Below, one piece after another: positions 18,132-26,159 of a stretch of DNA of 64,000 bases. Origin of the DNA: Candidatus Eubacterium faecale (GTDB lineage Bacteria > Bacillota > Clostridia > Oscillospirales > Acutalibacteraceae); assembly GCA_019119185.1 (NCBI GenBank), contig DWXN01000005.1:45951-109950 (forward strand), read 5' to 3'. The position numbers were made by a program, and so were the translations under genes. The stretch's first letter is position 1. Every line of letters starts with the position of its first letter. The notes beneath the pieces are model-generated. The model was not told the DNA's origin, did not search any database, and worked only from the letters and a program-made list of their open reading frames with translations.

Positions 18132-18271
18132 AGTCTTTCCTCCGAACCCTCAAAAATGAAAACTTCCTATAAAAGCATGAATCAGATATAATATTTTTTC
18201 ATACCTAAGTATACCACTTACCCGGCGAATTGCAACAAAAAAGATCGGCTTTTATGCCGATCTTTTCAACA

Positions 18272-19312
18272 TTACTCATAATCATAATTCCAGAAAGAGA
18301 CGGAATAAAGCTCGCTGTTTTTAAACCGCAGTTCGGTATGATATCCGTTCATTTTCTCATAAGTATAGACGATAAGATCGCCGTCTGTATAGGTTGAGCC
18401 CCAGGTGATATTCTCTATATCCGAAAATTTGGTAAAACCGTTAAGTTCGCCGAATTTATACTTCTGTTTCTTTTCAAGGGTGTCATATTCCAAAGTGATC
18501 CTGTATATTTCATCGCTGCCGTAATAAGTGTAAATCTCCGCATCCGCAAAAGTATGCAGCACATAGGATTCAATATCCTGATTTGGCATCACTTCCCCGC
18601 CAAGGTAGTAAGCGGCTGTATATATATCCGGCAATAATTCTGTAAGGTCTCTTAAATATTGATTGTCAACAGACATCTTAACCAGTTCCTGATTTGTAAT
18701 ATCCAGCTGCCACATGGCATTTGGGTCACCGGCAGTAACCACAGTTTCAAGATATACATGATTACCCTGAAAAGTTATCGTTCCCTGCCCGGCGTTTCCC
18801 CAGCCGTCATCCTCAAAGGTAAACCTTGCCTTATCCTCATCCGCAACGGCTTTAATATGACTGATCTCTGCTACCCGGTTTGAAGGCGGCGCAGAGATCA
18901 GCGTAAGCGAAAGTTCAAACGAATCGTCAAAATCATCATACGAAAGCAGCCGCAGTTCAATGCCGCCGGTCTCCATAATGCTGCTGCTTGCGGAATTGTC
19001 GGAATCAAAATATACACCCGTATAACTTTCATAATCTATGCCGGAACCGTTTGAAACAGCGCCTTGCGAATTTCCGGAACCCCCGCGTATTGCCGGAACG
19101 CCGTATTTTACAAAAGCAAAAATTCCGGCCGCGATAACTGCCGCGCACAAAATAACAACTACGGCAGCCACGGCTTTTTTGACGGAACCCGCGTTTTTCT
19201 TGTGCTTATGATTTTTCTTTACATTCACCGTTTCAGTAAATCCGGTCATACAGTACGGGCAGAACTGCGCCTCATCCGGCAGTTCTTTACCGCAGTTTGT
19301 GCAATGCTTCAT
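18272..19312 (-). CDS. Zinc-ribbon, single-TM membrane protein with extracellular domain
   Basis: CTNC..CPYC at the N-terminus, Lys/His-rich stretch, TM helix, Gly/Ser linker. Confidence 0.75.
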   Translation of the reverse strand: MKHCTNCGKELPDEAQFCPYCMTGFTETVNVKKNHKHKKNAGSVKKAVAAVVVILCAAVIAAGIFAFVKYGVPAIRGGSGNSQGAVSNGSGIDYESYTGVYFDSDNSASSSIMETGGIELRLLSYDDFDDSFELSLTLISAPPSNRVAEISHIKAVADEDKARFTFEDDGWGNAGQGTITFQGNHVYLETVVTAGDPNAMWQLDITNQELVKMSVDNQYLRDLTELLPDIYTAAYYLGGEVMPNQDIESYVLHTFADAEIYTYYGSDEIYRITLEYDTLEKKQKYKFGELNGFTKFSDIENITWGSTYTDGDLIVYTYEKMNGYHTELRFKNSELYSVSFWNYDYE

Positions 19313-19434
19313 ATTGACTCCTCATATATAATCTGATTAAATTATACATCTTTGCGCATAAAAAAATCAAGCAATACAAAATACTGCTTGATTTTAGTTT
19401 ATGTATGTTGCCCTTTGCAGCAATTACGGTATTA

Positions 19435-19965
19435 TTAATTACAATAATATATTCCCCAGTTTTGGAAATCACTTAAAGCAGTACCGCCTGTTAACTCAGC
19501 ACTTTTTGAATCTTTATCATAATCGAATACCAATGTGCCGGAAGAGGTATTCCCGCTTGAAGTCTGGTAATCCAAATACACAGTGATTTCAAGATCGCCG
19601 TCGTCTTCTTTATCTTTTTCAACGGATGTGATGTTGTAATAATCAGCAAGCGATCCGAAATATACGTTCTGCACAGCGCCGAATGACGCGGCAGATTGCA
19701 AATCTGATGGTAGAACGCTGCATACAAGCACAGCATTTGCCTGCTCATCCGTTAACCCGTTTGTTGATCCCCCACCTGCATTAGCCGCTATTGCTATGAT
19801 CAGCACAATAACTATAGGAAACGCTATGTGCTTGATTTTGCTTTTCTTGGGCAGATCTTTAAACCTTTTATAATTTTTTAAAAACTTCAAAAATCTGCCT
19901 GTTAGAAATTCTTTGATTTTTAAGCCGGTTTTCGATACAGTGCTTTTGATATTTTCAGCATCCAT
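19435..19965 (-). CDS. Hypothetical single-TM membrane protein
   Basis: Basic N-terminus, TM IAFPIVIVLIIAIAA, acidic C-domain; likely ATG at 19965. Confidence 0.65.
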   Translation of the reverse strand: MDAENIKSTVSKTGLKIKEFLTGRFLKFLKNYKRFKDLPKKSKIKHIAFPIVIVLIIAIAANAGGGSTNGLTDEQANAVLVCSVLPSDLQSAASFGAVQNVYFGSLADYYNITSVEKDKEDDGDLEITVYLDYQTSSGNTSSGTLVFDYDKDSKSAELTGGTALSDFQNWGIYYCN

Positions 19966-20110
19966 TATTGATTTTCCTTTCCTCATAAGATATGCCGGCA
20001 TATTCAGCCTGTTGTTTCACTATATTTCACGGATTATATGTAACACAACAGATGGGGTATAAGCAATTATCTTTATAAAGATAATTAATTGAGACAGCCC
20101 TTTTATCACT

Positions 20111-20830
20111 CTATAAATATTTTGCGATTTCAAAAAAGTGCCTCATATAACAATCCACATTTCTGTCTTTTGAGATTTTTGGATTTTCCGATCTTTTTTG
20201 ATTCGGCATTTTGTAAGCCGTATGCCACATAGTGATAACTTTATCACCATATTTGGATCTTATTTCGTTTGCAAAATTTGTTTTTCCCAAAACTATAATA
20301 TAATCAGGATCAATCAATTCAATTTCCTTAAATATAAACTCTTTGTACCGCTGAACATAAGCAGGGAATCGTTTGACGTCAACGCTTTTGCCGCCTCCTC
20401 TTTTATTAAGGTTCATAAACGCAACGCTTTTAAGCGCTTTTTTATATTCCTCCTCGGTCGGCGTTTCACGGCTTTGTAAGTTGTTTTTATTAAAAAGGTA
20501 AAACGCCATTCGCCCCATTTTTTCTCTTTGCTTAGGAATATTGTCGTTTACTTTTCCCCCAATAAAATCTTTATACCAGCATATCTGATCATCTTCGCCT
20601 GACGGTCTGTCGTCCTGATAATCCAATATATTTGGTTCTTTCAGTATAAACAAAATTTTGCATTTTGCGTTTTTATAGCACTCTTCGTTAATAATTCCGT
20701 CTTTAATAAATGAATTTTTCTCTATTCCGCCAATAGTGGTTTTATAAAAATCTTTTTCATTATTTTGTTTTTCCTGCCATAATTTGAACAGGCTGTTAAG
20801 ATTGCTGCAGTTTGTTAATTCACCATGCAT
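20111..20830 (-). CDS. Uracil-DNA-glycosylase-like fold protein (putative)
   Basis: KILFILKEP, AFMNLNK, ELIDPDYIIVLG and WH motif order resembles the UDG superfamily; AT-rich. Confidence 0.55.
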   Translation of the reverse strand: MHGELTNCSNLNSLFKLWQEKQNNEKDFYKTTIGGIEKNSFIKDGIINEECYKNAKCKILFILKEPNILDYQDDRPSGEDDQICWYKDFIGGKVNDNIPKQREKMGRMAFYLFNKNNLQSRETPTEEEYKKALKSVAFMNLNKRGGGKSVDVKRFPAYVQRYKEFIFKEIELIDPDYIIVLGKTNFANEIRSKYGDKVITMWHTAYKMPNQKRSENPKISKDRNVDCYMRHFFEIAKYL

Positions 20831-20972
20831 TGCCTAATTACCTCTACTCAAAAAATCATTTGTTTTTCAGCACGCTGCCACAATATCCACAAACCCCGAT
20901 CTGGGTATCCGAACGTCTGTCTGCACTTACGATATTTTTAGCATTAAACCTTGCGGCTTTAAAGTTTTTCTT

Positions 20973-21893
20973 TTATAATTCAACATACGCCACATCGGCG
21001 CCTTCAGCCTGTTGTTTCATTGTATTCCACTGCTCGTCTGTAACACGGCGAATACCACATTCTATAAAATTATTATCATCAATAAAGAATTGTAATAGAA
21101 TACCATCTTTATAAAATCCTACAGTACCTTGGTTTATATAATCTAACATTTCAACATTGATGTCTTCTATCTCGTCATAATCTATAATTCCAAACGCGTG
21201 CAACGCATGACTAGCAACTAAAGCGGATAAAAAAACAGCATCACCTTCGTCGTTACCATAATTTTTCAGCATTTCGATATCAGCAACAGACCTGACTTGG
21301 TAAATACCAGAATCTTTTGTATCTATATAACAACCATACATGCCATGCCCGTTTTCAGATGTATAAGTATATGTAGTAACTGTATCGGTATCAGAAGCTT
21401 CAACATCCACCGTGTCTGAATATTCTAATAGCGAAGATTCGTTGAGTTCCTCGCCATTTTTGTCTTTCGATTGTTGCTGAAGGGTTGAATTAATTTCATT
21501 AATAAAATCATTGGGACTCATATTATAGGCATAGTAATAATCAGAAACACCGTCTTTACTGTCTAACAATCCCGATTCATAATAGATCCAACCGTCATTC
21601 TGGGAAACGCCGCCTGTCCCTTCAGAATCTTCTGAATAATCGGAAGTTACGGCGGAATTTTCATCTGCTGTATCAGTGTCATCCGAAAATACTGCCGCTG
21701 CGAATCCAATGATCATGGGAATGACAAACACCAAGATAAAAACGATAAGCAGCGCTGTTAAAACTTTCTTTTTCTTGGATTTTTTATTACTTTTGGTAAT
21801 CGCTTCGGAAGTATTGCCAACGGGCTGCCCGCAATTGCTACAAAACGATTCCGTTTCGTTTAATTCTTTACCGCAATTTGAACAGTATCTCAT
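20973..21893 (-). CDS. Zinc-ribbon, single-TM membrane protein with acidic extracellular domain
   Basis: CSNC..CSNC, KKSKKKK, TM helix, D/E/S-rich linker. Confidence 0.75.
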   Translation of the reverse strand: MRYCSNCGKELNETESFCSNCGQPVGNTSEAITKSNKKSKKKKVLTALLIVFILVFVIPMIIGFAAAVFSDDTDTADENSAVTSDYSEDSEGTGGVSQNDGWIYYESGLLDSKDGVSDYYYAYNMSPNDFINEINSTLQQQSKDKNGEELNESSLLEYSDTVDVEASDTDTVTTYTYTSENGHGMYGCYIDTKDSGIYQVRSVADIEMLKNYGNDEGDAVFLSALVASHALHAFGIIDYDEIEDINVEMLDYINQGTVGFYKDGILLQFFIDDNNFIECGIRRVTDEQWNTMKQQAEGADVAYVEL

Positions 21894-21993
21894 AAGCTTC
21901 CCCTTTCATAAGTCATTAATATATGTATTTCTGCAACAATTCTATACTAAAAAAAGAGTATCAAAACAAGTAAAAATACTACTATTTGTCATT

Positions 21994-22023
21994 ATTATAT
22001 ACATATAGTAAGTGTTTTGTCAA
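21994..22023 (-). promoter_or_regulatory. SigA-like promoter for the 21893 gene
   Basis: TTGACA-18-TATAAT on the minus strand. Confidence 0.55.
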
Positions 22024-22092
22024 GTTGATTTTGTTTATAATATTAGAGGACTAATATATTGATTAGCAGGACTTCTATTTTGGTGGTAAAAA

Positions 22093-22431
22093 ATGAAACG
22101 GATCAACAACAAAGCGGTAGGCAGGCGCATCAAAGAGCGCCGTATGGAACTTGGATACACGCAGGAACAGCTTTCAGAACTCTGCGGCATTTCCACATCC
22201 TATTTGGGGCACATTGAAAGAGGCGCGCGAACAATTTCCGTAAATATGCTTTATACGCTTTCAGAAGTGCTGAATATGAGTACGGACGAAATTCTGTTTG
22301 ATTCATTTACCACAGATGATTCGCTTTTGGTGCACGTAAGCGCCGTGCTTGAAAAATGCGACGACGAGAAGAAAAAACAATTCTTTTATAACTCGGTAAA
22401 AACGCTTGCAAGCCAAATAGATGAACTGTAA
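22093..22431 (+). CDS. XRE-family HTH transcriptional regulator
   Basis: GRRIKERR..TQEQLSE..ISTSYLGHIERG. Confidence 0.9.
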   Translation: MKRINNKAVGRRIKERRMELGYTQEQLSELCGISTSYLGHIERGARTISVNMLYTLSEVLNMSTDEILFDSFTTDDSLLVHVSAVLEKCDDEKKKQFFYNSVKTLASQIDEL

Positions 22432-22476
22432 AAAATTACCCGTATGCTCATTATAGAGCATACGGGTTTTAAAGTC

Positions 22477-23196
22477 TTAAGCCGCCGGCTTAATTTTATT
22501 AAACTGCTTTTTCAATTCAAAAACGGATGCATAGCGGTTATCCGGAATCGTTTCTATACATTTTTCTATGATTTTTCTGTATCTGCCCGGGTAAAGATAT
22601 GTAAGCGGGTGCTGCCCGGTAAGCAAAATATTCAGCAAAATCCCAAGAGCGTAAATATCGGTTCTGGCATCGGACTGATCTATGCCGTACTGTTCGGGCG
22701 CGGCAAATCCTATGGTGCCAAGCGCCTTTGTGTCGTTAGATTTATATCTGCTGAATATTCTTGCCGCCGAAAAATCAATCAGTTTTACCACGCCGTCTGA
22801 AGAAATCATTATGTTTTCCGGCTTTATATCCCGATGCACAATATTTTCAGAATGCAGCACTGCAAGCACCTCAAAAAGCTGATTCATGATATTTGCGGCG
22901 GCGGATTCCGAATAAGCCCCTTCGCTGAGCACATCTGCAACACTGATACCGTTTATATATTCTTCAACCACCAAACTTTTTTCGCCGTCAAACGATGCCT
23001 GATAGATCTTTGGCAGATGGATATTTACAATCTTTCGCACCAGCGCATACACTTCACACTGCCCGGTAAATTTTTTAAACACGATTTCCTGTTTTGTTTT
23101 TTTATGCCTGTATCTGAGCACAACAGAAGATTCCGTTTTTTTAAGCGCCTGTAAAAATTCAAATTCGCTGTTCAGCGCCTGTTCAAGCCATTCCGT
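22477..23196 (-). CDS. Small Hanks-type Ser/Thr protein kinase; frame open upstream of the track start, to an ACG at 23196
   Basis: VEEYING, HRDIKPEN, DFS, GTIGFAAPE, DIYALG; in frame for 25 codons upstream of the GTG at 23121. Confidence 0.85.
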   Translation of the reverse strand, partial: TEWLEQALNSEFEFLQALKKTESSVVLRYRHKKTKQEIVFKKFTGQCEVYALVRKIVNIHLPKIYQASFDGEKSLVVEEYINGISVADVLSEGAYSESAAANIMNQLFEVLAVLHSENIVHRDIKPENIMISSDGVVKLIDFSAARIFSRYKSNDTKALGTIGFAAPEQYGIDQSDARTDIYALGILLNILLTGQHPLTYLYPGRYRKIIEKCIETIPDNRYASVFELKKQFNKIKPAA

Positions 23197-23265
23197 TTTT
23201 ATTCACCTGCCGCCACTTGTTTTTTTCATTATAACATGATAGACTTTTTTAGGGAAGTGATTGAT

Positions 23266-23694
23266 TTGCCATCATTTAAAAAAAGCACGAATGAGTTGCT
23301 GAGCGCACTGCTTAAAAGCGCAAGCGTTAAAAATTATATTCAGGAAAATAAAACGGAACTTATAGACATCTCGCTCAGTGAATATCTGAATGCAGTGGTT
23401 GCAGAAAAGAACCTGAAGATCTCACAGATTCTAAAAGACGCACAAATCAATCAGATCTACGGCTACCAGATATTTCAGGGAAAGAAACACCCGTCACGGG
23501 ACAAACTGATCTCTATTGCCATAAGCATGAATCTGGAACTTGAAGATATGCAAAAAATGCTTAAGGCGCTTAAGTATCAGCCGCTTTACGCAAGAATTGC
23601 GCGCGACTGCGTCATTATTAAAGGCATTACAGACGGAAATTCCGTTTGCGAAATCAATGAAGAATTATACAACAACGGCTTTGATACACTATAA
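23266..23694 (+). CDS. HTH (XRE-like) DNA-binding protein divergent from the kinase
   Basis: YGYQIFQGKKHPSRDKLISIA; TTG start at 23266 preferred because the ATG at 23236 lies inside a predicted promoter. Confidence 0.7.
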   Translation: MPSFKKSTNELLSALLKSASVKNYIQENKTELIDISLSEYLNAVVAEKNLKISQILKDAQINQIYGYQIFQGKKHPSRDKLISIAISMNLELEDMQKMLKALKYQPLYARIARDCVIIKGITDGNSVCEINEELYNNGFDTL

Positions 23695-23831
23695 AAGCCA
23701 TAAAAACACGCACACATAAAAAAGCACGGACCCGCTGTTGCAGGCCCGCGCTTATGGATAAAATAATGTTAAGAAAAACAGGGCTTTTGCAAATCTGCGA
23801 AAGCCTTGTTTTTTTATTTCATGTATTTCGG

Positions 23832-24830: not shown

Positions 24831-24869
24831 TATATCATATAAAATAATAATGTCAAGATCTATTTTAAA

Positions 24870-25088
24870 TTATTTATTCACTTCGGGGTTGTCCGTGCGA
24901 CCTAAAATATAATCAGTTGAAACACCGTAAAAATCCGCAAGTTTTATCAATATATCCGACGGAATATCTCTAAGCCCTGTTTCGTAACGATAGTACTGCG
25001 GTTGTTTCATTCCAAGAAAAGACGCTACTTCTGTTTGAGTTTTATCGCTGTCCTCCCTCAAGTCCCTTATTCTTTTGTAAAAAGCCAT
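24870..25088 (-). CDS. Small XRE-family HTH regulator
   Basis: RIRDLRED..TQTEVA..YYRYETG..LADFYGVSTDYILGR; ATG at 25088 behind AAGGTG. Confidence 0.9.
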   Translation of the reverse strand: MAFYKRIRDLREDSDKTQTEVASFLGMKQPQYYRYETGLRDIPSDILIKLADFYGVSTDYILGRTDNPEVNK

Positions 25089-25101
25089 TTTGAACACCTT
25101 T

Positions 25102-25173
25102 ATAACTAATTGGTTATTGACACATTAGCATAAGTATGGTATATTCAAATTAAATTATAACCATTTGGTTATA
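25102..25173 (+). promoter_or_regulatory. SigA promoter flanked by two ATAAC-N6-GTTAT operators
   Basis: TTGACA (25117)-17-TATATT (25140); ataactaattggttat 25102-25117; tataaccatttggttata 25156-25173. Confidence 0.75.
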
Positions 25174-25196
25174 TAATTATGTCTGGAGGTTTTTAT

Positions 25197-26084
25197 ATGG
25201 ATGAAGATATTGAAAAAGAAATATTGAAATGTGAGGAAGAAATAAAAAAGGCTTGGAAAAAAGAGGAATTTTTTATTATATCATATTTTATATCTATAAT
25301 TGCTACTATATATATTTCTTATCGTCTCTTAGGGGATGGATATTTATCTGATTATTTAGCTGAAAAATGGTGGCTTAACTTAATTATTATAATAGTATTA
25401 ACTATTATATCATTAAAAGTTTCTTCCCCTTATTATGATAAGCGAAAAGCTGCTATGCAGAAAAAATTTGAATTACAAAATAAAAAGTCTATTGAATTGG
25501 AAGATAAAAGATACACCAGATACTTAAACGCTTATAAGAGGGACTGTTCAAAATATTCAAAATTTAAATCTTATAAGGGATTAAAAATCGGAGTGCTGGA
25601 TGGACATTTTATGATTATCAGCCTTACCCCTCCTAAAGAACCACAGCATAAAGATGATGGGATGAATATTAAATTAATTAATGCGGTTAAACATGTCCTT
25701 GATATACATCTTGATATACCTTTAAAAGATTTTATTTATTTCAAAAAAGAAGGTTCTGTGCAGTACACAACAGAAGTATCGGGAGGAGGAACTTCTCTTG
25801 GCGGCGCTATTATAGGCGGACTAATAGCAGGCGGCGCAGGTGCAATAATCGGCAGCAGAAAGTCCGTTAAATCTAAAACTGTTGAGCACGATAACAGAGT
25901 AACTATAATAAAAACAAGAAAAGGAGAATATACAGGAGAAGCAGACTTGTACAAGGTATTAATGAAAGTTGTTCCCGAAAAAGAACTAACTCAAATTCTT
26001 GTTACCGAAAAGGAAAATAATAATTCTGCCCTTTCAAACAACGATACCGCCACTTTGCAGGAAAATACAAGCAGTAACAAATAA
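25197..26084 (+). CDS. AT-rich hypothetical membrane protein with two TM helices and a glycine-zipper segment
   Basis: Two N-terminal TM helices; GGAIIGGLIAGGAGAIIG; ATG at 25197 behind GGAGG. Confidence 0.7.
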   Translation: MDEDIEKEILKCEEEIKKAWKKEEFFIISYFISIIATIYISYRLLGDGYLSDYLAEKWWLNLIIIIVLTIISLKVSSPYYDKRKAAMQKKFELQNKKSIELEDKRYTRYLNAYKRDCSKYSKFKSYKGLKIGVLDGHFMIISLTPPKEPQHKDDGMNIKLINAVKHVLDIHLDIPLKDFIYFKKEGSVQYTTEVSGGGTSLGGAIIGGLIAGGAGAIIGSRKSVKSKTVEHDNRVTIIKTRKGEYTGEADLYKVLMKVVPEKELTQILVTEKENNNSALSNNDTATLQENTSSNK

Positions 26085-26159
26085 AGACAAGACAAAAGTT
26101 CATAATTATTAACAATATAAAATAATACTTTACATTTCTGTTTTTGTATGCTATAATGC

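What the first reader, a model, noticed from the sequence alone, without database searches (positions are those of the whole stretch)
19981..21050. 70-bp ungapped duplication exactly 1000 bp apart brackets the UDG-like gene
19981-20050 and 20981-21050 match at 48/70 positions by hand count, with a perfect 17-mer core TTCAGCCTGTTGTTTCA. The right copy is the 3' end of the zinc-ribbon gene (RRVTDEQWNTMKQQAEGADVAYVEL). The left copy is a decayed version (CCVTYNP*NIVKQQAEYAGISYEE) that runs into the RBS of the 19965 gene. This suggests a 1-kb cassette entered by recombination at the gene's 3' end and supplied a replacement C-terminus, making a cargo slot with no adjacent integrase.
Basis: partly seen in the sequence, partly recalled or inferred. 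Interest (0 to 1): 0.65.

Follow-up and report, generated by a model that had tools for sequence, protein, structure and literature searches.

The report
Fossil gene tail in swap-prone island
The 70-base repeat is real, but it is the decayed tail of an older gene left behind when genes were swapped in a strain-variable chromosomal island, not the edges of a mobile 1-kb cassette.

Summary
Window 19981-20050 and 20981-21050 match at 48/70 with an exact 17-mer that occurs only at these two places in the 1.9-Mb genome (chance about 2e-4). The right copy is the last 24 codons of a 306-aa zinc-ribbon membrane gene (ZnR306). The left copy is a dead version of it just upstream of the 188-aa gene.

Conspecific metagenome contigs (flanks 98-99% identical) show that the stretch from the rpmA terminator to the SDR gene (window about 18148-23717) is a strain-variable island. 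I saw at least five layouts, one of them empty. No polymorphism seen has its boundaries at the repeat pair.

One layout (L107) keeps the UDG-fold gene and the left copy but has no ZnR306 and no right copy. There a 379-aa and a 215-aa gene follow the same promoter. In the window, the "spacer" between ZnR306 and the UDG-fold gene is the 3' stub of that 215-aa gene. So the 1 kb between the copies is a composite of two blocks, not one cassette.

The spacing is 997 bp in most strains, so "exactly 1000" is coincidence.

Best reading: serial gene displacement behind a shared promoter, leaving 3' stubs, as in Rhs/T6SS C-terminal displacement. No integrase, empty allele or excision product was found. 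This is an ordinary scar in a well-documented variable island.

The parts
20979..21046 (-). Right copy: the last 23-24 codons (RVTDEQWNTMKQQAEGADVAYVEL) of the resident 306-aa zinc-ribbon membrane gene ZnR306. It is identical in both alleles of that gene.
19979..20046 (-). Left copy: decayed relic of a ZnR306-family 3' end, with an in-frame TGA and 11 amino-acid changes. It lies directly upstream of the RBS of the 188-aa gene. It is also present in strain L107, which lacks ZnR306.
20973..21893 (-). ZnR306: N-terminal CxxC...CxxC zinc ribbon, one TM helix, an extracytoplasmic domain and a conserved C-terminal tail.
21048..21560 (-). Hypervariable central block of ZnR306. Alleles A (window) and B are about 45-58% identical in DNA here, between flanks that are 98-100% identical. 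The 3' edge of the block coincides with the inner edge of the right copy.
20943..21975 (-). ZnR306 cassette: the segment that strain L107 replaces with a 1789-bp block (a 379-aa Band_7_1/zinc-ribbon gene plus most of a 215-aa gene).
20859..20942 (-). 3' stub of the 215-aa membrane/zinc-ribbon gene (AKNIVSADRRSDTQIGVC(G/E)YCGSVLKNK*). It is in frame after the ZnR306 stop and has no start codon of its own. It is 76/87 identical to the intact gene in L107 (86/87 in strain L018).
20111..20830 (-). 239-aa accessory gene with a divergent UDG-superfamily fold.
20065..20086 (.). Perfect 22-nt AT-rich palindrome between the stop of the 239-aa gene and the left copy. It is unique in the window and its function is unknown.
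19435..19965 (-). Single-TM protein gene of 176 aa from the ATG at 19965. Gene callers use the ATG at 20001, giving 188 aa. It is broken in some strains.
18272..19312 (-). ZnR346: a second zinc-ribbon/TM/ectodomain gene with its own promoter-like site (19370-19341).
21994..22023 (-). Consensus promoter-like site (TTGACA-18-TATAAT, 12/12). It is shared by the ZnR306, 379+215 and 125/366/257 layouts. Homology between layouts ends 20-45 bp downstream of its -10 box.
18148..23717 (.). Strain-variable island between the rpmA terminator and the SDR promoter/RBS. In conspecific strains it is absent (L103, L108), replaced by other genes (L102, L105), or partly replaced (L107, L123).

Best explanation
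The two copies are not the product of one insertion or duplication. They are the same 3'-terminal segment of two different ZnR306-family genes that occupied this locus at different times. The locus is part of a 5.6-kb strain-variable island between rpmA and an SDR gene. In this island, gene blocks behind a shared promoter are replaced by recombination with DNA from other strains. The anchor is homology on the upstream side (XRE gene and promoter), or homology on both sides. Where the downstream join is illegitimate, it falls inside the 3' end of the resident gene and strands a short promoterless stub in front of the next gene.

Two such stubs lie in the window. The older is the ZnR306-like tail in front of the 188-aa gene (the left copy), now decayed. 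The younger is the last 28 codons of a 215-aa gene in front of the UDG-fold gene.

Most parsimonious order of events (inferred):
1. Promoter, then a ZnR306-like gene, then the 188-aa gene.
2. A block containing 379 + 215 + the UDG-fold gene displaces all but the tail of that gene. This gives the L107 layout.
3. A ZnR306 cassette of 1033 bp displaces 379 and most of 215. This gives the window layout and brings a fresh copy of the tail 1 kb upstream of the fossil one.

Shown: the repeat; the island polymorphism; the two stubs; the shared promoter anchor; the absence of a recombinase. Inferred: the order of events and the recombination mechanism (homology-facilitated illegitimate recombination).
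For: The repeat is real and in frame.

Five island layouts occur in conspecific contigs whose flanks are 98-99% identical. They include an empty one (L103, L108) and L107, which has 379+215 in place of ZnR306.

L107 carries the left copy but not the right one.

Window/L107 homology ends just after the shared -10 box, at about 21975, and resumes at 20942 inside the 215-aa gene's last 28 codons. That stub is 86/87 identical to the intact gene in some strains. Its polymorphism falls at codon position 3 (0/4/15 and 0/1/9; synonymous:non-synonymous 14:4). This fits a gene that is functional in other strains.

At the 11 sites where the window tail and the divergent L034 tail differ, the relic agrees with each 5 times. 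It is therefore an outgroup to both, not a recent copy of the right tail.

The called genes and their Pfam hits list no integrase or transposase in the island or about 6-8 kb either side.

Both stubs end about 10-30 bp before the RBS or start of the next gene.

The 239-aa family is rare in the genus (2 of 144 species) and sits in unrelated contexts elsewhere.
Against: The presumed starting state, a ZnR306-family gene directly abutting the 188-aa gene, was not found in any contig or in 144 other species of the genus.

The order of events is not forced. L107 could derive from the window layout by ordinary homologous recombination with a 379-215 donor.

Similarity of the relic to ZnR306 upstream of 20046 is not significant (p about 0.06), so the relic's true length is unknown.

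The exact 17-mer inside a 69% match is somewhat longer than uniform decay predicts (my rough estimate, not a tool result: about 0.03-0.04). This might reflect constraint, because it overlaps the alternative start region of the 188-aa gene.

No read-level data could be examined.
Confidence: 0.7

Rival explanations
1. A fragment carrying a ZnR306 3' end plus the UDG-fold gene recombined into a resident ZnR306 gene that sat directly before the 188-aa gene. It supplied a new C-terminus and pushed the old one downstream in a single step (C-terminal displacement).
For: Direct repeats of a gene's 3' end that flank extra DNA are what C-terminal displacement produces. The left copy is decayed and the right one intact. 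The 239-aa gene is an accessory gene found in unrelated contexts elsewhere. The ZnR306-to-239 block is more AT-rich (0.31-0.38 G+C) than the 188-aa gene, ZnR346 and the core flanks.
Against: The interval holds the 215-aa gene stub and an internal illegitimate joint at 20942/3, so it was assembled in at least two steps. L107 has the 239-aa gene and the left copy without the right copy. The polymorphic unit that carries the right copy is 20943-21975, not 20047-21046. No empty allele was seen in the contigs read. The model survives only if the composite formed first in another lineage and L107 arose later by a further exchange, which needs one more event.
Confidence: 0.15
2. The left copy is what remains of a second, tandem ZnR306 paralogue that coexisted with the present gene and was later deleted except for its 3' end.
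For: The island and its relatives are full of tandem zinc-ribbon/TM paralogues: ZnR346 here, three in G047 and in the L123 layout, and a fused 436-aa form in G011. The relic is equidistant from the two known functional tails.
Against: No strain shows two ZnR306-type genes. In practice this differs from the best explanation only in whether the two genes ever coexisted, and the data cannot tell.
Confidence: 0.1
3. The repeat is functional: either a pair of recombination sites for excision or inversion of the 1-kb segment, or a shared regulatory or RNA element.
For: There is an exact 17-mer core. The left copy is invariant across strains (1 SNP in 32 contigs) and lies in the 5' leader of the 188-aa gene.
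Against: No recombinase gene lies nearby. Identity outside the core is only about 60%. The left copy exists without a partner in L107. No deletion allele is seen among 31 two-copy contigs. The invariance is no greater than that of neighbouring sequence, which is 100% identical over 20046-20585. The right copy is simply coding sequence.
Confidence: 0.03
4. The repeat is a chance similarity.
For: The region is AT-rich and of lowish complexity. A 46/70 match exists elsewhere in the window.
Against: P is about 2e-4 for the window-wide search. The 17-mer is unique to the two sites in the genome. The match is in frame and ends at the stop codon. The relic shares the variant GCCGGCATA with the divergent L034 tail.
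Confidence: 0.02

Closest known systems
C-terminal displacement in rhs/CDI loci, and sequential displacement of T6SS effector-immunity modules in Vibrio cholerae (Kirchberger et al. 2017, PMC5361080, read; Jackson et al. 2009 as cited there)
   Same: A conserved upstream stretch anchors incoming DNA and the other end joins illegitimately. The old 3' part is pushed downstream and remains as a promoterless orphan. Repeated events build a string of stubs. Strains of one species carry different modules. No dedicated recombinase is involved.
   Different: No toxin-immunity logic is evident here. The stubs are short (70-110 bp), decayed or non-coding, and are not retained as functional orphan immunity genes. 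The displaced units are whole genes behind a promoter, not tips of one long gene. The proteins are zinc-ribbon/TM/ectodomain proteins and a UDG-fold protein.
Homology-facilitated illegitimate recombination in transformable bacteria (de Vries & Wackernagel 2002; Prudhomme et al. 2002; Meier & Wackernagel 2003, as cited in PMC5361080; PMC3240628 for conjugation)
   Same: There is a one-sided homology anchor (XRE gene and promoter, identical up to about 21975) and a non-homologous downstream joint (20942/3).
   Different: The mechanism is inferred from sequence scars only. Competence or transformation in this organism was not examined.
Replacement-type flexible genomic islands between conserved core genes (own knowledge: Rodriguez-Valera and co-workers' concept of strain-variable islands encoding surface-exposed structures)
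   Same: The island has a fixed chromosomal position between core genes (rpmA and SDR/feo). It has several unrelated gene sets and an empty state within one species. Its boundaries lie at a terminator and at a promoter. The products are mostly predicted surface or membrane proteins.
   Different: The island is small (0-5.6 kb). It shows nested sub-replacements and an intragenic hypervariable block.
Integron or site-specific gene cassettes
   Same: Alternative promoterless gene blocks sit behind one fixed promoter.
   Different: There is no integrase and there are no attC-like sites. The junctions are not at a repeated recombination site. The repeat copies are 69-72% identical and do not bound any observed polymorphism.

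Membership tests
Site-specific mobile cassette (att-flanked or integron-like) | A recombinase or integrase gene in or next to the element | tested here: not met
   The called genes and their Pfam hits for the island and about 6-8 kb on each side list no integrase, transposase or resolvase. The window ORFs give kinase, XRE HTH, zinc-ribbon and weak UDG hits only.
Site-specific mobile cassette (att-flanked or integron-like) | The repeats bound the unit that is present or absent among strains (an empty site exists) | tested here: not met
   Polymorphism boundaries are at 23718/18147-18235, 21975/20942 and 21950/19384, never at the repeat pair. L107 has the left copy only. None of the contigs read that carry the 188-aa gene has an empty allele.
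Site-specific mobile cassette (att-flanked or integron-like) | An excised circle or deletion joint in sequencing reads | not testable with these tools
Gene or C-terminal displacement scars (HFIR type) | Alternative modules in conspecific strains share an identical upstream anchor | tested here: met
   Window, L107 and L123 are 98-99% identical through the XRE gene and the promoter, and diverge 20-45 bp after the -10 box.
Gene or C-terminal displacement scars (HFIR type) | A 3' fragment of the displaced gene lies, without a start, downstream of the incoming module | tested here: met
   The 215-aa gene stub at 20859-20942 is intact in L107. The ZnR306-like tail relic at 19979-20046 has an internal stop.
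Gene or C-terminal displacement scars (HFIR type) | The ancestral undisplaced arrangement is observed | tested here: inconclusive
   For the 215 stub it is met (the L107 layout). For the left copy it is not found: no ZnR306-type gene directly abuts the 188-aa gene in the contigs read or in 144 genus genomes.
Tandem duplication | The whole unit is repeated head to tail, with similar divergence along its length | tested here: not met
   Only 68-70 nt match. At offset 1000 the flanks are unrelated.
Uracil-DNA glycosylase superfamily (for the 239-aa gene) | Pfam UDG (PF03167) at or above the gathering score | tested here: not met
   18.6 bits against a cut-off of 24.3. Of 39 homologues, 20 give weak hits, the best at E = 2e-4.
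Uracil-DNA glycosylase superfamily (for the 239-aa gene) | UDG alpha/beta fold | tested here: met
   The AlphaFold2 model has pLDDT 91.5. All top Foldseek PDB hits are UDG-superfamily enzymes (family 4 UDG 1ui0 at E 2.4e-4; UdgX, TDG, SMUG1), but TM-scores are only 0.41-0.48.
Uracil-DNA glycosylase superfamily (for the 239-aa gene) | Catalytic motifs and glycosylase activity | not tested
   The invariant residues of the family (D44 G45 L60 E65 K143 G146 I170 H203) were not mapped onto UDG motifs.

The most novel reading that the evidence does not exclude
The XRE gene plus the consensus promoter at 22023-21994 might act as a fixed, integrase-free expression platform. Different first cassettes (ZnR306 allele A, allele B, 379+215, 125+366+257) would be exchanged in the population behind it by one-sided homologous recombination. 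The conserved ZnR306 tail and the stubs would serve as downstream homology handles. In particular, the 17-bp identical core could allow rare deletion of the UDG-fold gene by recombination between the two tails.
Probability: 0.12. Interest if true: 0.5.

Novelty: new member of a known kind. Interest (0 to 1): 0.3.

Why it matters
This is a clean, datable example of how small accessory genes are shuffled in a gut-type Firmicute chromosome without mobile-element machinery. Two nested 3' stubs record successive replacements behind one promoter.

It also has a practical lesson for annotation. A short direct repeat that brackets an accessory gene need not be an att site. An "intergenic spacer" with codon-like conservation can be the stub of a gene that is intact in sister strains.

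Surface-protein variability at this site (two roughly 50%-identical ectodomain alleles and five layouts) marks it as a candidate target of phage- or host-driven diversifying selection.

Tried and rejected
1. Stop-codon readthrough, or a micropeptide started at a non-AUG codon, for the 37 in-frame codons after the ZnR306 stop. I considered this because substitutions fall at codon position 3, there is no suppressor tRNA, and TAA is the commonest stop. I rejected it once L107 showed that the stretch is the 3' end of an intact 215-aa gene in other strains.

2. Scans of genome contigs and metagenome contigs with the tail pattern TGAAACAACAGGCTGAANNNGCCG. These gave only chance LKQQAE hits plus one more contig of the same locus.

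3. Cross-species synteny. The G011 contig ends 43 bp upstream of its homologue of the 188-aa gene, and its kinase contig is not syntenic. G047 has a different arrangement. The genus-wide protein search for ZnR306 found only distant relatives (at most 30% identity; the tails of the hits were not inspected). The stub has no significant match in the genus.

4. Extension of the relic upstream of 20046 into 20047-20110. A weak YKDNCL/YKDGIL match is not significant (p about 0.06).

5. The idea that the 188-aa gene lost an N-terminal zinc ribbon (G047 comparison). I dropped it because the 366-aa protein of the L123 layout has the same N-terminal module without a ribbon.

6. PADLOC gave no hits for the 239-aa, 188-aa, 379-aa, 215-aa, 642-aa and 334-aa proteins or for ZnR346. 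ZnR306 gave only a marginal PD-T4-6 match (E 0.009) that I disregard. A PDB sequence search for the 239-aa protein gave nothing below E = 0.1.

8. The 22-nt palindrome as a repeated operator. It occurs only once in the window.
Full report
**1. The observation**

All genes of interest lie on the minus strand:
- ZnR346, 18272-19312.
- A single-TM gene, 19435-19965 (or to 20001). It is 188 aa as gene callers call it.
- A 239-aa gene, 20111-20830.
- ZnR306, 20973-21893.

Upstream of these lie a divergent XRE gene (22093-22431, plus strand) and a kinase (22477-23121, minus strand).

The repeat finder delimits the pair as 19979-20046 and 20979-21046, at 72%. The translations are as stated.

The 17-mer occurs nowhere else in the 1.875-Mb assembly. 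The chance of such a pair is 6e-13, or about 2e-4 after allowing for all pairs within 5 kb in the window. Only a tRNA-Ser repeat does as well.

The repeat is therefore real homology. The "exactly 1000 bp" is not meaningful: among 31 conspecific contigs with both copies the spacing is 997 in 25, 998 in 3 and 1000 in 3.

**2. What the right copy is**

ZnR306 has a zinc ribbon (Pfam Zn_Ribbon_1), a TM helix and an ectodomain. A search of 5.8 billion proteins found only its own cluster and a second allele.

The two alleles are identical over residues 1-110 and over the last 24 residues. They are only about 35% identical in between. At DNA level the flanks are 98-100% identical and the block at about 21048-21560 is 45-58% identical.

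The 3' edge of this block (21047/8) coincides with the inner edge of the repeat. I read this as follows. A block of strong heterology stops heteroduplex extension, so recombination endpoints pile up at its edges. For the same reason, any older allele is recognisable only from the tail onwards. This is an inference.

A more divergent lineage (L034) has a tail variant...AEDAGIEYAEL. At the 11 sites where this tail and the window tail differ, the left copy agrees with each five times. The left copy therefore behaves as an outgroup, not as a recent copy of the present right copy.

**3. The interval is a composite**

The 142 bp between the ZnR306 stop and the start of the 239-aa gene contain 37 further in-frame codons that end in ...VC(G/E)YCGSVLKNK*. 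Between strains, substitutions here fall on codon position 3: 0/1/9 and 0/4/15, with synonymous:non-synonymous 14:4. No canonical start codon is available.

I first considered readthrough. TAA is the commonest stop and no suppressor tRNA exists.

The answer came from contigs anchored on the conserved FeoA protein. In strain L107 the same promoter is followed by a 379-aa Band_7_1/double-zinc-ribbon gene and then a 215-aa membrane protein. That protein's C-terminus is ...CPCCGAKNIVSADRRSDTQIGVCEYCGSVLKNK*. The 239-aa gene follows directly.

Window/L107 homology ends about 20 bp after the shared -10 box (about 21975) and resumes at 20942. So 20859-20942 is the 3' stub of the 215-aa gene. It is 86/87 identical to the intact gene in strain L018 and 76/87 in the window. 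The ZnR306 cassette is 20943-21975.

L107 also carries the left copy between the 239-aa and 188-aa genes, although it has no ZnR306 and no right copy.

**4. The island**

The same look-ups, plus one anchored on the XRE protein, show at least five layouts between the rpmA terminator and the SDR promoter/RBS. All are in contigs whose flanks are 98-99% identical to the window:
1. The window layout, with ZnR306 allele A or B.
2. XRE-113 + 642-aa + LRR_5 protein.
3. Empty (83 bp).
4. The L107 layout.
5. 125-aa + 366-aa + 257-aa zinc-ribbon genes followed by ZnR346.

The boundaries against the window are 23718/18235 (layout 2), 23718/18147 (layout 3), 21975/20942 (layout 4) and 21950/19384 (layout 5). 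None lies at the repeat pair.

The contigs read that carry the 188-aa gene all have the 239-aa gene before it. None shows ZnR306 directly before the 188-aa gene.

No integrase, transposase or other recombinase is called in the island or about 6-8 kb around it. No intrinsic terminator is predicted between the promoter at 22023-21994 and the 188-aa gene. ZnR306, the stub, the 239-aa gene and the 188-aa gene may therefore be one transcript. This is an inference.

**5. The cargo gene**

The 239-aa protein scores below the Pfam UDG threshold, but 20 of 39 homologues give weak UDG hits. An AlphaFold2 model (pLDDT 91.5) finds only UDG-superfamily structures at the top of a PDB fold search: family 4 UDG, UdgX, TDG and SMUG1, with E down to 2.4e-4 and TM-scores of 0.41-0.48. 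"UDG-like" is fair at fold level. Membership of a known UDG family is not shown.

The gene was found in only 2 of 144 other species of the genus. Elsewhere it lies in unrelated contexts: alone, after a KAP NTPase, and overlapping a reverse transcriptase next to WYL and UvrD genes. That fits an accessory gene, possibly defence-related. PADLOC has no model for it.

**6. Explanation**

The simplest history has two displacement events behind one promoter.
- First, a block ending in 215 + 239 replaced an older ZnR306-family gene. Its last 70 bp or so remained in front of the 188-aa gene. This is the left copy, now with a stop codon and 11 changed residues.
- Later, a ZnR306 cassette replaced 379 and most of 215. 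This left the 215 stub and placed a fresh tail 1 kb upstream of the fossil one.

Both stubs end about 10-30 bp before the next gene's ribosome-binding site or start codon. That is expected if only joins that spare the downstream gene's translation signals survive.

The pattern matches homology-facilitated illegitimate recombination and the C-terminal/effector displacement described for rhs, CDI and T6SS loci (PMC5361080): an identical upstream anchor, a non-homologous downstream joint and an orphaned 3' piece.

A tandem-paralogue origin of the relic is a minor variant that the data cannot separate. A functional att-like role and chance are both unlikely.

**7. Limits**

- The ancestral arrangement for the left copy was not found.
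- Cross-species comparison failed. The locus is not conserved in the genus, and the one relevant contig (G011) ends 43 bp short.
- Reads could not be examined.
- Only the 24 longest-contig blocks per anchor protein were sampled.

**8. Verdict**

The repeat is real and correctly described. It is best explained as an ordinary evolutionary scar in a small, strain-variable replacement island. It is a new example of a known kind of process and is of modest interest.

Noticed in passing
window 20859-20972 (minus strand): The 'spacer' after the ZnR306 stop reads on in frame for 37 codons and shows codon-position-3 polymorphism. Its last 28 codons are the 3' stub of a 215-aa membrane/zinc-ribbon gene that is intact in strain L107.
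   Followed up: yes
window 18148-23717: The whole block (152-aa gene, kinase, XRE, ZnR306, 239-aa gene, 188-aa gene, ZnR346) is a strain-variable island between the rpmA terminator and the SDR promoter. Conspecific strains have it empty, replaced by XRE + 642-aa + LRR_5 genes, or partly replaced.
   Followed up: yes
window 21048-21560: ZnR306 exists as two alleles with about 50% DNA identity in the ectodomain block, between identical flanks. Among 31 contigs, 20 carry allele B and 11 carry allele A. This is a candidate target of diversifying selection.
   Followed up: partly
window 20586-20945: A second mosaic block (215 stub plus the 5' third of the 239-aa gene) is only 70-91% identical between the window and other strains. 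It shows at least three haplotypes, while 20046-20585 is 100% identical.
   Followed up: partly
window 24838-26116: A 1.28-kb AT-rich insert (XRE plus a small membrane gene) between rpsO and rplU is missing in most conspecific contigs. It is present in L110/L126, and a different insert lies there in L125.
   Followed up: partly
L101/L111 and L119 (equivalent to window 19435-20001): The 188-aa gene is split into two short ORFs (46+98 aa, 58+123 aa) in some strains, so it is dispensable or decaying. In some strains the 239-aa gene is called as 229 aa.
   Followed up: no
window 20065-20086: A perfect 22-nt palindrome, AATTATCTTTATAAAGATAATT, lies between the stop of the 239-aa gene and the left copy and is unique in the window. 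A perfect TATAAT lies inside the left copy (about 20030-20035, minus strand), but no -35 box sits at a standard spacing.
   Followed up: partly
L040 (ERR13982867 contig) and L037: Homologues of the 239-aa UDG-fold protein (about 50% identity) overlap the 3' end of a reverse-transcriptase gene next to WYL and UvrD-helicase genes. In another organism one follows a KAP-family NTPase by 5 bp. This hints at a role in defence systems.
   Followed up: no
L013 147-1457 (G011): A 436-aa zinc-ribbon protein in a sister species combines a ZnR306-like N-terminal ectodomain (25% identity, E 7e-22), including a counterpart of the conserved tail helix (my by-eye alignment; the BLASTP match ends at ZnR306 residue 266), with a ZnR346-like C-terminal domain. 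The tail is thus an integral helix of the domain and not a separate module.
   Followed up: partly
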